Origin: Micavibrio sp. UBA1664 | GTDB taxonomy: Bacteria > Pseudomonadota > Alphaproteobacteria > Micavibrionales > UBA1664 | Length of the DNA stretch: 48,786 bases | Direction: 5' to 3' | Assembly (NCBI GenBank): GCA_002320485.1 | Contig: DCKW01000050.1 | Location: 1-48,786, forward strand | Shown here: piece after piece, positions 43,522-48,786 of the stretch | Layout of the letters: each line of letters opens with the position of its first letter | How positions within the stretch are numbered: position 1 is the first letter of the stretch | Translations under genes and position numbers: made by a program | Notes under the pieces: generated by a model | Databases searched by the model: none | What the model was told of the DNA's origin: nothing | The model's input: the letters and a program-made list of their open reading frames with translations, nothing else

Positions 43522-44355
43522 TCTGGCATACCCTTGCCGACGACCGCTTATACTCTCAAAAGCATTGATCGTCCCGGTCAATGCTTTTTTTAGTTTGCTT
43601 TTGGTTGCATTGGCCCTTACCGGATCAAGTTGCGGCATATGATCCCCATCGGCAGAGTTGTCGCGCATATAGGTATTATATTTTAATTCGATCATACAGG
43701 CCTCGACATTAGGCTGCGCCCCGTAATGACGGACAATATGCCCCCCTGAAAATTGCGGAAGACTTGCCAGAGTAAAACCTTGAGCATTGAAATCACGACT
43801 CAATTGATCTTTAAGGTCTGCGCCCTTATCACCATGTCGCCCAGCCCCAAGACAAATATCAGCCTCGGTTTCTACGGCAAAACTGTGCATGTCGAGAACA
43901 TAGGCATGTCCAAAACGCTCTATTTTGGCATTTATAGTTTCTTGTAAGATTGCATGAAACGGCCGATAAAAATGAGCGATACGAAATTCCTCCCTTAAAT
44001 CACATCCGGCGTCTTTTAAAATAGGGTCGCCCCATGTGTCTTTGGTGTAAATCAAGCTGCTGCGATAGCTTTGACCGCCGCTTAACTGCTCCAATCCTCG
44101 GTTCACATCAATAACATAACGGCTAAAATCAGCCTCGATTGTTGTGACACCCAACTCAGGTAAAAAATCGTAAATGTCTTGAAGGTGCCAATCGGTATTC
44201 CGTAAACGCGACAGATGGGTTTGGGTATAAAGACCCTTCAGTAAGGGCGGAATGTAGGTACCGCTATGCGGAATACTTGCCACAAACGGGGTTTCATATC
44301 CGTGTGGATGATGAACAGTAACAGGTGCTTTTGTGAATTCGGTTATCCTTTCCAT
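43510..44355 (-). CDS. N-formylglutamate amidohydrolase (FGase) family protein
   Basis: IPHSGTYIPP, DVNR and YVLDMHSF are FGase-family motifs. It is convergent with dnaA, and the 3' ends overlap by 12 nt. Confidence 0.7.
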   Translation of the reverse strand: MERITEFTKAPVTVHHPHGYETPFVASIPHSGTYIPPLLKGLYTQTHLSRLRNTDWHLQDIYDFLPELGVTTIEADFSRYVIDVNRGLEQLSGGQSYRSSLIYTKDTWGDPILKDAGCDLREEFRIAHFYRPFHAILQETINAKIERFGHAYVLDMHSFAVETEADICLGAGRHGDKGADLKDQLSRDFNAQGFTLASLPQFSGGHIVRHYGAQPNVEACMIELKYNTYMRDNSADGDHMPQLDPVRANATKSKLKKALTGTINAFESISGRRQGYARLSL

Positions 44356-44367
44356 ATCGCTTCTTTT

Positions 44368-44376
44368 TTATCCACA
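44368..44376 (+). promoter_or_regulatory. perfect DnaA box TTATCCACA
   Basis: Exact 9-mer in the divergent hutG-like/dnaN intergenic region. Confidence 0.6.
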
Positions 44377-44393
44377 CTGGTAATTGATTTTTC

Positions 44394-44421
44394 CCGTCAA
44401 AGTCAAGCATTGTCTTGACGG
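44394..44421. repeat. inverted repeat CCGTCAA...TTGACGG (with a nested GTCAAG/CTTGAC alternative) upstream of dnaN
   Basis: Read directly from the sequence. The outer stem is 7 bp and the inner stem is 6 bp. Confidence 0.5.
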
Positions 44422-44485
44422 AAAATCGTTTCTGGTTAATATCAATCCAAAGAATTGACCGGAAGACGAGAAGGACATACAAACA

Positions 44486-45604
44486 ATGAAACTGACCATT
44501 GATCGCGCTGATCTTATGAGAGCGTTAAGCCACGTACAATCTGTTGTCGAGCGTAGAAATACCATACCTATTTTATCGAATGTGCGCCTTGACGCCATGG
44601 ACGGCATATTGACATTGACAGCTACCGATATGGATCTGGAAATTAACGAGTCCGTTGCCGCATCAGTAGAGACCGAAGGTGCGACAACCGTTCCGGCCCA
44701 TACCTTTCATGACATTGTCCGTAAACTGCCTGACGATGCCAAAGTTGAACTTGTTTTGGAACCCGGTGGCGGTATGATGACCGTTACGGCAGGCCGTTCC
44801 AAATTCAAGCTATCATGTTTACCTGTCGCAGATTTTCCGGAATTAGGATCAGGCGATATGGATGTGTCTTTCCAGATTGCCGCGGGTGACTTGCGCGAAC
44901 TGGTTGACCGCACCCGTTTTGCCATGTCAAACGACGAAACACGCTATTATTTAAACGGGGCCTATTTCCATGCGGCGGATGCCAATGGTGTATCGGTATT
45001 GAGAACTGTTGCCACTGACGGACACCGTCTGGCACAACATGAAATGCCTTTGCCAGAAGGTGCGTCCAACATGCCGGGTGTTATTATTCCGCGTAAAGCC
45101 GTGGCCGAAATCCGCAAGCTTGCCGATGAAGCAGCCGCCCCGATTACAATTGAAATTTCCGAAAATAAAATTCGTTTTGCCTTTGACCATATTGTTATGA
45201 CGTCGAAATTGATCGACGGGACGTTTCCTGATTACCAAAAGGTTATCCCGCAAGGCAACGACAAAATTGTTGAGGTGAATCCGAAAATCTTCACCAGCGC
45301 GATCGACCGTGTTTCCACGATCTCCAACGAAAAAACACGCGCGGTGAAGCTGGCGATTGACGGTAATACAATGACCTTGAGCGCACAAAGTCCGGATGCA
45401 GGATCGGCAACCGAAGATATCGAAATTTCAAACGATAACACCGCACTCGAAATCGGGTTTAATTCCCGTTACCTACTGGATATCACCGCACAAATCGGCA
45501 GCGAACGGTGCCGCATTACACTGGCGGATGCGGGCGGCCCGACAATTTTACAGGATATGGATGATACGTCCGCCCTGTATGTTCTGATGCCGTTACGCGT
45601 TTAA
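44486..45604 (+). CDS. dnaN: DNA polymerase III beta sliding clamp
   Basis: MKLTIDRADLMRALSHVQSVVERRNTIPILSNV is a canonical DnaN N-terminus. 372 aa with a C-terminal LMPLRV. Confidence 0.95.
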   Translation: MKLTIDRADLMRALSHVQSVVERRNTIPILSNVRLDAMDGILTLTATDMDLEINESVAASVETEGATTVPAHTFHDIVRKLPDDAKVELVLEPGGGMMTVTAGRSKFKLSCLPVADFPELGSGDMDVSFQIAAGDLRELVDRTRFAMSNDETRYYLNGAYFHAADANGVSVLRTVATDGHRLAQHEMPLPEGASNMPGVIIPRKAVAEIRKLADEAAAPITIEISENKIRFAFDHIVMTSKLIDGTFPDYQKVIPQGNDKIVEVNPKIFTSAIDRVSTISNEKTRAVKLAIDGNTMTLSAQSPDAGSATEDIEISNDNTALEIGFNSRYLLDITAQIGSERCRITLADAGGPTILQDMDDTSALYVLMPLRV

Positions 45605-45633
45605 TTGCACTGAAAAAAAATGAAATTGTTAAT

Positions 45634-45662
45634 AGCCCCCTGCCCGTGCAGGGGGTATTCTT
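45634..45662 (+). terminator. putative terminator after dnaN
   Basis: CCCCCTGC-ccgt-GCAGGGGG is a perfect 8-bp stem. The downstream T-tract is weak (TATTCTT). Confidence 0.5.
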
Positions 45663-45668
45663 ATAAAA

Positions 45669-46796
45669 ATGACACATATCGCCTCCCTCACCCTGACTGC
45701 CTTTCGTAATTACGAGGCCACCTCTATTGATGGGTTAGAGAATAATTTTATCGTCCTGATCGGCGAAAACGGCGCAGGGAAAACAAATTGCATGGAGGCC
45801 ATTTCAATCCTGTCACCCGGACGCGGTTTGCGCGGTGCCACTGTTATGGAATGCCAATCACAATCCGTTAAAACACCTTGGGCCGTGTCCGCATCGATTA
45901 TCGACAAAGATGGTGATGCGACACGCCTTGGCGTGGGGCGCGATCCGCAAAAGCCTGATAAAAAGATCGTTCGGGCCGATGGAGATACACTTAAAAATCA
46001 ACAGGAGCTGGGGGATGTATTACGCACAATCTGGCTGACACCCCAGATGGACGGTCTGTTTTTACAAGGCGGATCGGAACGGCGCCGCTTTTTCGACCGT
46101 CTGGTTGCCAGTTTTGATCCAGCGCATACAGGTCGTATGACCCGATACGAGAAAGCCATGCGTGACCGTTTAACCCTTCTTAAAGCCGAGGCCGAGGCAG
46201 GAAACACCGCTGACCCGACATGGTTGGCCGCATTGGAATCTATTATGGCGGAAACGTCCGTGGCCATCGCCGCTGCGCGTATTGAAACGCGAAACCGCCT
46301 GCAATATGTTATCAATCATGCAACTTTGAGCGAATTTCCCTCGGCAATTATCGATTTAAGCGGTGAGGTTGAAGAAGCCCTGAGCAAACGAACCGCCCTC
46401 AGTGTCGAGGACATGGTTCGTGATCGCCTGATAAATATTCGGAAGGCCGACGGGCATACAGGCCGCACCAATTTCGGCGTACAACGCACCGATATGGCTG
46501 TCACCTATAATGAAAAAAATGTCGGCGCCGCGCAATGTTCAACAGGGGAACAAAAGGCGTTGCTCACGACCATCATCCTTGCCCATGCCCGCATGGTGGC
46601 CGCGCGATACGGCGCCCCTCCTTTATTATTATTTGATGAGGTGGCCGCCCATTTTGATAAAAAACGTCGGGATGCTTTATTCGACGTGTTGAAAGCGTTT
46701 AAAACGCAGATATGGTTGTCAGGTCAGGACAGGGAACAATTTGCAAATCTGGATAACAGTCATATATTACATATTCATAACAATGTTATTTTATGA
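45669..46796 (+). CDS. recF: DNA replication and repair protein RecF
   Basis: LTLTAFRNY and Walker A GENGAGKTN are present. The signature is SxGEQK (STGEQKAL). Walker D is LLLFDEV. Confidence 0.93.
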   Translation: MTHIASLTLTAFRNYEATSIDGLENNFIVLIGENGAGKTNCMEAISILSPGRGLRGATVMECQSQSVKTPWAVSASIIDKDGDATRLGVGRDPQKPDKKIVRADGDTLKNQQELGDVLRTIWLTPQMDGLFLQGGSERRRFFDRLVASFDPAHTGRMTRYEKAMRDRLTLLKAEAEAGNTADPTWLAALESIMAETSVAIAAARIETRNRLQYVINHATLSEFPSAIIDLSGEVEEALSKRTALSVEDMVRDRLINIRKADGHTGRTNFGVQRTDMAVTYNEKNVGAAQCSTGEQKALLTTIILAHARMVAARYGAPPLLLFDEVAAHFDKKRRDALFDVLKAFKTQIWLSGQDREQFANLDNSHILHIHNNVIL

Positions 46797-47354
46797 TGAA
46801 ATTTTTTCGACCCGCATTGTATATATCAATCCCATCGCTCCCTGTTTCACCTCACCATTTTTAACGGAGGCAAACACCTTGAAACTGATATCATTATCAG
46901 GAATACGATACTCATATTGCAAAGACCCCATCATATCGCTGATATTTTTTTTGATCGGGGTGATCTGTATTCCTTTAATTTGAGCAAAGCCCTTCATCGC
47001 CTGTTTGAATTCGGCCTCGACATCGGCAAAACGAAGTTGTTTATCACCAACGAACTGACAACTGCCGGCAGAAGGGTCAATTACCGCAACAAAATTGGCT
47101 TTGGTAAAATTGAATCCCCAAACCTTGCTTTCCGGTCCCGCTTCCAGATTTTTACGAAAGGCGACCGCCTCATTTTCCGGTAATTGCTTGAAGTTGGAGA
47201 GTAACTGCGCAACACGTTCGGGATTAGTTACACTACCCATACAGACATCATGGAAAATCCGCACCGATGCCATGGCAATTTCATTTTGATCATCAGCCTT
47301 TACGGGAAATGAAAATGAGAGAAAACCCATTAAAAACAAAAGAAAAAGGCGCAT
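46791..47354 (-). CDS. hypothetical secreted protein (187 aa)
   Basis: Signal peptide ..SFPVKAD. Its 3' end overlaps the recF stop by 6 nt. No family recognised. Confidence 0.5.
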   Translation of the reverse strand: MRLFLLFLMGFLSFSFPVKADDQNEIAMASVRIFHDVCMGSVTNPERVAQLLSNFKQLPENEAVAFRKNLEAGPESKVWGFNFTKANFVAVIDPSAGSCQFVGDKQLRFADVEAEFKQAMKGFAQIKGIQITPIKKNISDMMGSLQYEYRIPDNDISFKVFASVKNGEVKQGAMGLIYTMRVEKISS

Positions 47355-47499
47355 GACAATATTCTCCTACCCTTTTATTATAAACTTTTATTAGAATTTT
47401 TGAAAGCCCTTGTGAATAACCGTTAAAAAATGACAAAAAGCCTAGGTTTAGCGCACCTTGCAAGGTATAATCCGGTATTCAATTCAAGAGGAAATATTT

Positions 47500-48786
47500 A
47501 TGGCTGACAATACGGCAGAAGAGCTCCCAGCAAACACGGCAAATACTGTCGAATATGGCGCGGATTCAATCAAGGTTTTAAAAGGGCTCGACGCCGTTCG
47601 CAAACGCCCGGGCATGTATATCGGCGATACCGATGACGGTACGGGCCTCCACCACATGGTGTTCGAGGTGTCGGACAATGCCATCGACGAAGCCTTGGCC
47701 GGTCACTGCGACCTGGTGCTGATCGAGCTCAATTCCGATGGCTCCGTCAGCGTGGAAGACAATGGCCGCGGCATTCCGGTCGACATGCACAAGGGCGAAG
47801 GCGTCTCCGCCGCAGAGGTCATCATGACCCAGCTGCACGCGGGCGGCAAGTTCGAGAACACCAGCGACGACAATGCCTACAAGGTATCGGGCGGCCTGCA
47901 CGGCGTGGGCGTTTCGGTCGTCAACGCGCTGTCCGAATGGCTGGAACTGGTCATCTGGCGCGATGGCAAGGAACACTGGATGCGCTTCGAACATGGCGAT
48001 GCCGTGGAGAGCCTGCGCGTCGTGGGCGATGCCCCGCCAGTCGAATCGAATGGCGACGATAACGGCCTCAAGAAAGGCACGCGCGTCACCTTCAAGGCAT
48101 CGGAAGATACCTTCAAGAACGTGACCGAGTTCGATTTCGACAAGCTGGAACACCGCTATCGCGAACTGGCCTTCCTCAATTCGGGCGTGCACATCCTGCT
48201 GCGCGACAAGCGTCACGAAGAACCGCTGGAACACGATCTGTTCTATGAAGGCGGCATCGCGGCCTTCGTGAAATATCTGGATCGCAACAAGCAGGCGCTG
48301 GTCGCCGAACCGATCTCGGTCAGCGCGGAGAAGGAAGGCATCGGCATCGATGTCGCGCTGGAATGGAACGATTCCTATTACGAGAACGTGCTGTGCTTCA
48401 CCAACAACATCCCGCAGCGTGACGGCGGCACCCATCTGGCCGCCTTCCGCGCGGCGCTGACGCGCACGCTCAACAATTATGCCACTTCGTCGGGCCTGAT
48501 GAAGAAGGAAAAGGTTTCGCTTTCGGGCGAGGATATGCGCGAAGGCCTGACCGCCATCGTTTCGGTCAAGCTGCCCGATCCCAAGTTCGGATCACAGACC
48601 AAGGACAAGCTGGTTTCTTCCGAAGTGCGCCAGCCGCTGGAATCGCTCATGGGCGAAAAGATGGGCGAATGGCTGGAAGAAAATCCCAATGACGCCAAGC
48701 AGATCATCCAGAAGGTGATCGATGCCGCCGCCGCCCGCGAAGCCGCGCGCCGCGCCCGCGAGATGAGCCGCAAGGGCGCGATGAGC
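47500..48786 (+). CDS. gyrB: DNA gyrase subunit B, 3'-truncated by window end
   Basis: Absent from the ORF track because there is no stop in the window. ATG 47500 has RBS AAGAGGAAA. The translation MADNTAEE...[51 protein letters not shown]...GRGIPVD...LHAGGKF...[19 protein letters not shown]...QTKDKL is canonical GyrB. 429 codons remain in frame to the last base. Confidence 0.95.

What the first reader, a model, noticed from the sequence alone, without database searches (positions are those of the whole stretch)
47575..48786. Abrupt jump from ~40% to ~60-65% GC about 80 nt inside gyrB: chimeric join or unameliorated allele replacement
Seen: the first ~27 codons of gyrB (47500-47580) use the AT-rich codons typical of the rest of the window (for example GCA GAA ... 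AAT ACT GTC GAA TAT ... GTT TTA AAA). From GGG CTC GAC GCC GTT CGC AAA CGC CCG GGC onward, the remaining ~1.2 kb is GC3-saturated. Hand counts of 60-nt lines give 42% at 46801-46860 and 37% at 47401-47460, against 60% at 47581-47640 and 65% at 48301-48360. The reading frame is continuous and the protein is canonical GyrB on both sides. The switch point coincides with the near-universally conserved [13 protein letters not shown] motif. The high-GC part also generates long spurious antisense ORFs (47578-48435, 48477-48773), as expected for foreign high-GC DNA.
Inference, option one: an assembly or binning chimera joined two alphaproteobacterial genomes at a conserved gyrB k-mer. This is plausible because the switch lies at the end of the window or contig.
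Inference, option two: a very recent homologous-recombination replacement of gyrB from a high-GC donor.
Basis: seen in the sequence. Interest (0 to 1): 0.6.

Follow-up and report, generated by a model that had tools for sequence, protein, structure and literature searches.

The report
Misassembled foreign gyrB tail at contig end
The last 1.16 kb of this contig is a piece of another bacterium's gyrB gene (family Erythrobacteraceae), almost certainly stitched on by the metagenome assembler at a short shared sequence, so it is an artefact to trim rather than a biological event.

Summary
The GC jump is real. The last 1.16 kb of the contig is the most GC-rich kilobase of the whole 1.6-Mb MAG (GC 0.61, GC3 0.80). 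By comparison, 581 long ORFs have mean GC3 0.45, sd 0.06, max 0.63.

The window is the entire contig C91, and gyrB runs off its end.

Ten independent public assemblies of the same population are identical to the window up to base 47627. All ten then continue with a different, native gyrB (GC3 0.54, 817 aa, about 89% identical to same-genus GyrB). From 47628 on, the window is only 69% identical to them.

The tail nests inside Sphingomonadales/Erythrobacteraceae: 93% aa identity to Aurantiacibacter gilvus and 95% to two high-GC metagenome contigs.

The junction (47605-47628, motif GMYIGD|TDDG) lies where native and donor-like genes share their longest exact word, 20 nt ending at 47627.

The chimeric product is on record nowhere else. 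The MAG lacks the rest of gyrB and at least 5 kb of native downstream DNA.

The parts
44486..45604 (+). dnaN, a native control gene
   Evidence: 83-88% aa identity to same-genus genomes, 72-75% to the same family and 55-71% to the same order. This is the expected hierarchy. GC3 is 0.50.
45669..46796 (+). recF, a native anchor used to find other assemblies of the same population
   Evidence: The exact 375-aa product is found on 8 public contigs with the same neighbours. GC3 is 0.50.
46791..47354 (-). 187-aa hypothetical protein, a native anchor
   Evidence: The exact product is on 22 public contigs. All ten that were shown have a full or partial gyrB next door.
47500..47627 (+). Native 5' part of gyrB (codons 1-43, [43 protein letters not shown])
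   Evidence: 0 mismatches to ten independent assemblies over this stretch. The N-terminus MADNTAE matches same-genus GyrB. GC3 is 0.55.
47605..47628 (+). Breakpoint interval of the chimeric join, inside the codons for GMYIGD|TDDG
   Evidence: The window keeps native AAA at 47602-47604, where all 7 donor relatives have AAG. The first non-native base is 47628. The closest donor-like gene (L136) shares its longest exact word with native gyrB here: 20 nt, 47608-47627.
47628..48786 (+). Foreign gyrB fragment (last base of codon 43, then codons 44-429) from an Erythrobacteraceae bacterium, running off the contig end
   Evidence: 69% nt identity to the native allele. 93% aa identity to Aurantiacibacter gilvus. 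95% aa and 88% nt identity to the high-GC metagenome contigs L136/L137. In the tree it falls in a 99* clade with these, inside a 100* Sphingomonadales clade. GC is 0.61 and GC3 0.80.
47578..48435 (-). Spurious 285-aa antisense ORF
   Evidence: Listed. It lies entirely antisense to the GC3-rich gyrB frame, an expected by-product of high GC3 (inference).
48477..48773 (-). Spurious 98-aa antisense ORF
   Evidence: Listed. Same reasoning as for the 285-aa antisense ORF.

Best explanation
This is an inter-genome assembly chimera.

The contig is genuine DNA of a small-genome, roughly 45%-GC marine alphaproteobacterial population up to base 47627, which is codon 43 of its gyrB. At the highly conserved [10 protein letters not shown]-coding stretch, the native gene and the gyrB of a co-occurring high-GC Erythrobacteraceae bacterium share an exact word of about 20-23 nt.

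The inferred mechanism is that the k-mer-graph assembler walked from one genome into the other through that word. Because the join is at homologous positions, the frame stays open and the product looks like an intact GyrB.

The binner then carried the foreign tail into the MAG as part of a 48.8-kb native contig.

Shown: the two origins, the position of the junction, the existence of the native allele in the same population, and the location at the contig end.

Inferred: that the join was made by the assembler and not in a cell.
For: 1. The window is the whole contig C91, and gyrB is cut by the contig end.

2. Ten independent assemblies from different samples are 99.7-100% identical to the window over the part of 44001-47574 that each covers, and identical over 47575-47627. 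All diverge at the same base, 47628, and are 69-74% identical afterwards. They carry a complete 817-aa native gyrB followed by an MFS transporter gene and infC.

3. The native allele groups with same-genus genomes (99* clade, 89% identity). The window's tail groups with Aurantiacibacter gilvus and two GC-0.65 metagenome contigs (99*), inside Sphingomonadales (100*). Same-genus GyrB sequences are 85-95% identical to each other but only 67-70% identical to the window's.

4. The neighbour gene dnaN shows the normal identity hierarchy, and so does secD on another GC-rich contig end.

5. The junction ends exactly where the closest donor-like gene shares its longest exact word with the native gene (20 nt, 47608-47627). 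Downstream of the junction the two genes share no word longer than 14 nt.

6. The 429-aa chimeric product is on record nowhere else.

7. The MAG contains neither the rest of gyrB (native or foreign) nor the 5.4 kb of native DNA that follows it.

8. The same test does find a real variant. The high-GC integrase next to tRNA-Ser on C121 is seen in an independent assembly.

9. Prior from the literature: conserved sequences shared among organisms cause inter-genome misassemblies, which were the most frequent error type in the CAMI benchmark assemblies (PMC9661791). [quoted passage not shown]

10. A parallel case: in P0007, an Erythrobacter-type GyrB N-half is joined to a ParE-type C-half at MTDADVDGAHI, 518 nt from the end of a 424-kb Nitratireductor MAG contig.
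Against:
- The exact donor sequence was not found. The best matches are 95% aa and 88% nt, so co-occurrence of the donor in the same sample is inferred, not shown.
- The shared word seen in the nearest donor relatives is 14-29 nt. Whether the true donor shares at least k-1 bases for the assembler's k is unknown, as are the assembler and its k.
- A single recombinant strain sampled only by this assembly cannot be excluded on sequence grounds alone.
Confidence: 0.9

Rival explanations
1. This is a genuine, very recent recombinational replacement. One strain of this population took up Erythrobacteraceae DNA. It replaced gyrB from codon 44 onward by a crossover in the 20-23-nt identical stretch (homology-facilitated recombination). 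The contig ends there only because the assembler could not resolve strain variation.
For: The frame is continuous and the join is at homologous positions, so the product is a plausible functional GyrB. The junction lies in a micro-homology that could also serve as a crossover point. Absence of read data leaves this rival formally open.
Against: - None of ten otherwise identical assemblies has the mosaic, and the mosaic product is not on record elsewhere.
- The partners are only 69% identical, with no shared word longer than 14 nt downstream. By established knowledge, homologous recombination is strongly suppressed at that divergence.
- The foreign piece never returns to native sequence. It ends as a dead-end 1.16 kb on, and the native downstream genes are missing from the MAG. 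With both alleles present in the sample, an assembler would be expected to break at the start of the divergence, not 1.16 kb into one arm (inference).
- gyrB is an essential gene whose product must pair with native GyrA.
Confidence: 0.07
2. This is native codon bias. On this reading, gyrB is simply a highly expressed, GC3-rich gene of this genome, and nothing is foreign.
For: dnaN, recF and the native gyrB are somewhat GC-richer (GC3 0.50-0.55) than the genome mean of 0.45. The first 47 nt of the apparent high-GC block (47581-47627) are indeed native.
Against: The native allele of the same population is known and differs: GC3 0.54, and 69% nt identity to the tail. The tail's GC3 of 0.80 is about 6 sd above the MAG's long ORFs. 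The tail is phylogenetically inside Sphingomonadales.
Confidence: 0.01
3. This is a post-assembly merging artefact. Two contigs were joined by an overlap-based merger or scaffolder, not by the primary k-mer assembler.
For: The outcome would look the same, a foreign tail at a contig end. The MAG's pipeline is unknown.
Against: Native and donor-like genes are only about 82% identical over the 100 nt around the junction, by a hand count from the alignment. That is too low for the high-identity overlaps such mergers usually require (own knowledge). There are no Ns at the junction.
Confidence: 0.02

Closest known systems
Inter-genome translocation misassembly (interspecies chimeric contig) in short-read metagenome assemblies, as defined and benchmarked for metaMIC (PMC9661791) and DeepMM (bioRxiv 10.64898/2026.10.15.759294)
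   Same: Two genomes are joined in one contig at a sequence conserved between them. The foreign part is carried into the bin because binners assign whole contigs. Marker-based contamination stays low, 0.99% here.
   Different: Here the join is in frame inside a single essential gene, so it yields an intact-looking mosaic protein. The read-level signatures those tools rely on could not be examined.
P0007, a 665-aa 'DNA topoisomerase (ATP-hydrolyzing) subunit B' of a Nitratireductor MAG (GCA_039968065.1, contig JBDVQM010000014.1)
   Same: An Erythrobacter-type GyrB N-half (93% identical to this tail) is fused at a conserved type IIA topoisomerase motif (MTDADVDGAHI) to a different gene. The gene begins 518 nt from the end of a long contig.
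   Different: The partner is a ParE-type C-half of a different order, and the junction is at the Toprim motif, not the GMYIGD motif. I did not test it further.
Genuine mosaic genes made by interspecies homologous recombination (for example mosaic penicillin-binding-protein genes of Neisseria and Streptococcus; own knowledge)
   Same: In-frame blocks of foreign sequence within a conserved housekeeping-type gene, with breakpoints in conserved stretches.
   Different: Those mosaics arise between species that differ by a few to about 20%, and they are seen repeatedly in isolates. Here the partners differ by 31%, belong to different orders, and the mosaic is seen in one contig end only.

Membership tests
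Inter-genome assembly chimera | The two sides of the junction have different phylogenetic origins. | tested here: met
   Upstream genes and codons 1-43 of gyrB are native to the genus. The tail sits in a 99* clade with Aurantiacibacter gilvus inside a 100* Sphingomonadales clade, while the native allele sits in a 99* clade with the genus.
Inter-genome assembly chimera | The junction lies on a sequence shared exactly by both source genomes. | tested here: met
   The junction interval is 47605-47628. The nearest donor-like gene shares its longest exact word with native gyrB at 47608-47627 (20 nt), and other relatives share 14-29 nt there. The true donor's sequence upstream of 47628 is unknown.
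Inter-genome assembly chimera | The unjoined native sequence exists in the same population. | tested here: met
   Ten independent assemblies are identical up to 47627 and then continue with native gyrB.
Inter-genome assembly chimera | Read-level signature at the junction: a coverage step, clipped reads or discordant pairs. | not testable with these tools
Inter-genome assembly chimera | The foreign part is a short terminal segment that does not rejoin native sequence. | tested here: met
   The foreign part is 1,159 nt at the very end of contig C91. Native downstream DNA is absent from the MAG.
Real recombinant (mosaic) gyrB allele | The mosaic is reproducible in independent samples or assemblies. 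| tested here: not met
   All ten assemblies shown have the native allele. The exact mosaic product is not on record.
Real recombinant (mosaic) gyrB allele | A second crossover returns to native sequence downstream. | tested here: inconclusive
   The contig ends inside the foreign block. No other contig of the MAG holds a gyrB C-terminal part.
Real recombinant (mosaic) gyrB allele | Single molecules (reads, long reads or amplicons) span the junction at the depth of the host genome. | not testable with these tools

The most novel reading that the evidence does not exclude
One strain of this oligotrophic marine alphaproteobacterial population really carries a mosaic gyrB. Its ATPase domain, from codon 44 on, would have been replaced very recently by that of an Erythrobacteraceae bacterium from a different order, through a crossover in only about 20-23 nt of identity.
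Probability: 0.06. Interest if true: 0.5.

Novelty: not a real feature. Interest (0 to 1): 0.08.

Why it matters
Biologically this is nothing new. It matters for data quality.

The MAG is a species representative in a reference collection, and it carries a gyrB that is about 97% Erythrobacteraceae over its assembled length. gyrB is a widely used phylogenetic and typing marker (own knowledge). This sequence would therefore mislead gene trees, horizontal-transfer screens and primer or probe design. Its 0.99% marker-based contamination gives no warning.

The contig should be cut at 47605-47627. The native allele (817 aa, in ten public assemblies) can stand in.

The case also gives a clean recipe for separating chimeras from real variants without reads. 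Look up exact-product neighbours in independent assemblies and find the first diverging base. The same recipe correctly recovered a real integrase island on contig C121.

Tried and rejected
- Search for the exact donor. The genome-contig scan, the metagenome contigs pattern scan and the protein search gave at best 93-95% aa and 88% nt identity. No identical donor contig was found, so co-occurrence in the same sample stays inferred.
- Look-up of the chimeric 429-aa product in other assemblies: not on record.
- Search for other foreign tails in the MAG.
  - The C11 5' end (GC 0.57, secD) proved native, at 83-91% identity to the genus.
  - The C121 5' end (GC 0.62, integrase next to tRNA-Ser) proved to be a variant also present in an independent assembly, so it is not a chimera.
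  - The C122 3' end and the C77 5' end were listed but not followed up.
- Codon bias of a highly expressed gene as the explanation: rejected, because the native allele is known and differs.
- Overlap-merger artefact: thought unlikely, because identity around the junction is only about 82%.
- I did not name the MAG's taxon.

Full report
**Observation**

The window is the whole of contig C91 (48,786 nt) of a MAG. The MAG has 1.61 Mb in 129 contigs, GC 44.6%, 86% completeness and 0.99% contamination.

gyrB starts at 47500 on the + strand and runs off the contig end after 429 codons.

GC in 200-nt windows rises from 0.32-0.47 before the gene to 0.55-0.63 inside it. The 1-kb windows at 47501-48700 are the most GC-rich of all 14,899 windows in the MAG: 0.60, against 0.564 for the next locus, with mean 0.44 and sd 0.045.

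GC3 of 47629-48786 is 0.80. A proxy gene set of 581 long ORFs has mean 0.45, sd 0.057 and maximum 0.63.

**The tail is not the gyrB of this lineage**

The N-terminal halves of same-genus GyrB are 85-95% identical to each other and have GC3 0.33-0.49. They are only 67-70% identical to the window's GyrB, and so is every other genome of the family and order.

The neighbour gene dnaN behaves normally: 83-88% identity to the genus, 72-75% to the family and 55-71% to the order.

Only the first residues (MADNTAE...) look like the genus.

**The native allele of this very population is known**

I looked up the exact products of the two genes just upstream, the 187-aa hypothetical protein and RecF, in public assemblies. 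The 187-aa protein alone was on 22 contigs, largely from Tara Oceans and other marine metagenomes, and ten places were shown.

These ten are 99.7-100% identical to the window over the part of 44001-47574 that each covers. Six have no mismatch there, among them two that cover all 3,574 nt. All ten are identical to the window over 47575-47627. All ten then differ from the window at the same first base, 47628, and are only 69-74% identical afterwards.

They carry a complete 817-aa gyrB with GC 0.51 and GC3 0.54, followed by an MFS transporter gene and infC.

The GC-rich codons for [15 protein letters not shown] (47581-47627) are therefore native.

**Where the tail comes from**

A scan of one genome per prokaryotic species gave Aurantiacibacter gilvus (Erythrobacteraceae) at 93% aa identity. 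Novosphingobium, Porphyrobacter and other Sphingomonadales followed at 75-86%, and everything else was at or below 72%.

Two metagenome contigs with GC 0.65 (L136, L137) are 95% aa and 88% nt identical. Partial proteins at 95% identity carry Erythrobacteraceae-type N-termini.

In a maximum-likelihood tree of 76 sequences:
- The tail falls in a 4-row clade (SH-aLRT 99) with A. gilvus, L136 and L137, inside a Sphingomonadales clade (100).
- The native allele (L131) falls in a 6-row clade (99) with the five same-genus genomes.

**Anatomy of the junction**

The window keeps the native AAA at 47602-47604, where all seven donor relatives have AAG. The first non-native base is 47628. The join therefore lies within 47605-47628, in the codons for GMYIGD|TDDG.

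Donor relatives share exact words of 14-29 nt with the native gene here. For the closest one (L136), the longest exact word shared with native gyrB anywhere in the gene is the 20-mer at 47608-47627, which ends precisely at the junction. Downstream of the junction, the tail and the native gene share no word longer than 14 nt.

This is what a walk through a k-mer graph would produce: one way in and no way back.

**Other context**

- The 429-aa mosaic product is on record nowhere else.
- The MAG has no other gyrB piece, only parE on C31.
- The MAG lacks the 5.4 kb of native DNA that follows the junction in the other assemblies.

**Controls**

secD at the GC-rich 5' end of C11 is native.

The GC-0.62 integrase fragment at the 5' end of C121, next to tRNA-Ser, has no counterpart in four other assemblies. 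It is present with only 3 mismatches in an independent one, L143. The look-up approach can therefore recover a real strain-specific variant, and it found none for the gyrB mosaic.

**Interpretation**

The best explanation is an inter-genome assembly chimera (confidence about 0.9).

Conserved sequences shared between organisms are a recognised cause of such misassemblies, and inter-genome translocations were the most frequent error type in the CAMI benchmark assemblies (PMC9661791). [quoted passage not shown]

A parallel turned up by chance. P0007 is an Erythrobacter-type GyrB N-half fused at MTDADVDGAHI to a ParE-type C-half, and the gene begins 518 nt from the end of a 424-kb Nitratireductor MAG contig.

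**What remains open**

That test is coverage, clipped reads and spanning pairs at 47605-47628.

The exact donor was not found, and the assembler and its k are unknown.

A genuine recombinant strain (about 0.07) would need three things: a crossover in about 20 nt of identity between genes that are 31% divergent, in an essential gene, seen in none of ten sister assemblies. Even then, it would not explain why the contig dies 1.16 kb later without returning to native sequence.

**Verdict**

This is not a real biological feature. Interest is low, apart from its value as a curation flag for a species-representative MAG and a commonly used marker gene.

Noticed in passing
G000:C121:1-638 (= L138:1-638): The first 548 nt of contig C121 (GC 0.62) encode the N-terminal part of a tyrosine-integrase-like protein, directly downstream of tRNA-Ser(tga) at 549-638. 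Four other assemblies of the population have a CNNM/CBS gene there instead. One independent assembly (L143, SRR5324479) has the integrase version with 3 mismatches, so this looks like a real strain-specific island at tRNA-Ser.
   Followed up: partly
P0007 / L147:519-2516 (NCBI GCA_039968065.1, JBDVQM010000014.1, last 2.5 kb of a 423,837-nt contig); also P0008: The 665-aa and 672-aa 'topoisomerase subunit B' proteins have an Erythrobacter-type GyrB N-half that switches to a ParE-type C-half at the MTDADVDGAHI motif. P0007 begins 518 nt from a contig end of a Nitratireductor MAG. These are probably the same kind of chimeric tail.
   Followed up: partly
window 44486-47500 versus relatives G005 and G006: This population has dnaN-recF-(187-aa gene)-gyrB in one block. 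In the well-assembled same-genus genomes G005 (30 contigs) and G006 (9 contigs), dnaN and gyrB lie on different contigs, while genus g3 of the same family keeps them adjacent. This may be a synteny difference within the genus.
   Followed up: no
G000 (whole MAG) versus L131:7700-13128: The native DNA downstream of the junction is absent from the MAG. It comprises the rest of gyrB, an MFS transporter gene, a 68-aa ORF, infC and an AprE/HlyD-like gene, at least 5.4 kb in all. The chimeric join therefore coincides with a real gap in the bin.
   Followed up: partly
G000:C11, about 800-1050: A run of N about 250 nt long sits inside secD near the 5' end of contig C11. It is either a scaffold gap or a masked stretch. 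The flanking secD parts are native.
   Followed up: no
window 47641-47643: The tail encodes DDGTGLHH where the native allele, all relatives and all Erythrobacteraceae hits have DDGSGLHH. This single Thr-for-Ser difference lies 13 nt after the junction. It could be a donor-specific variant or an error near the join.
   Followed up: no
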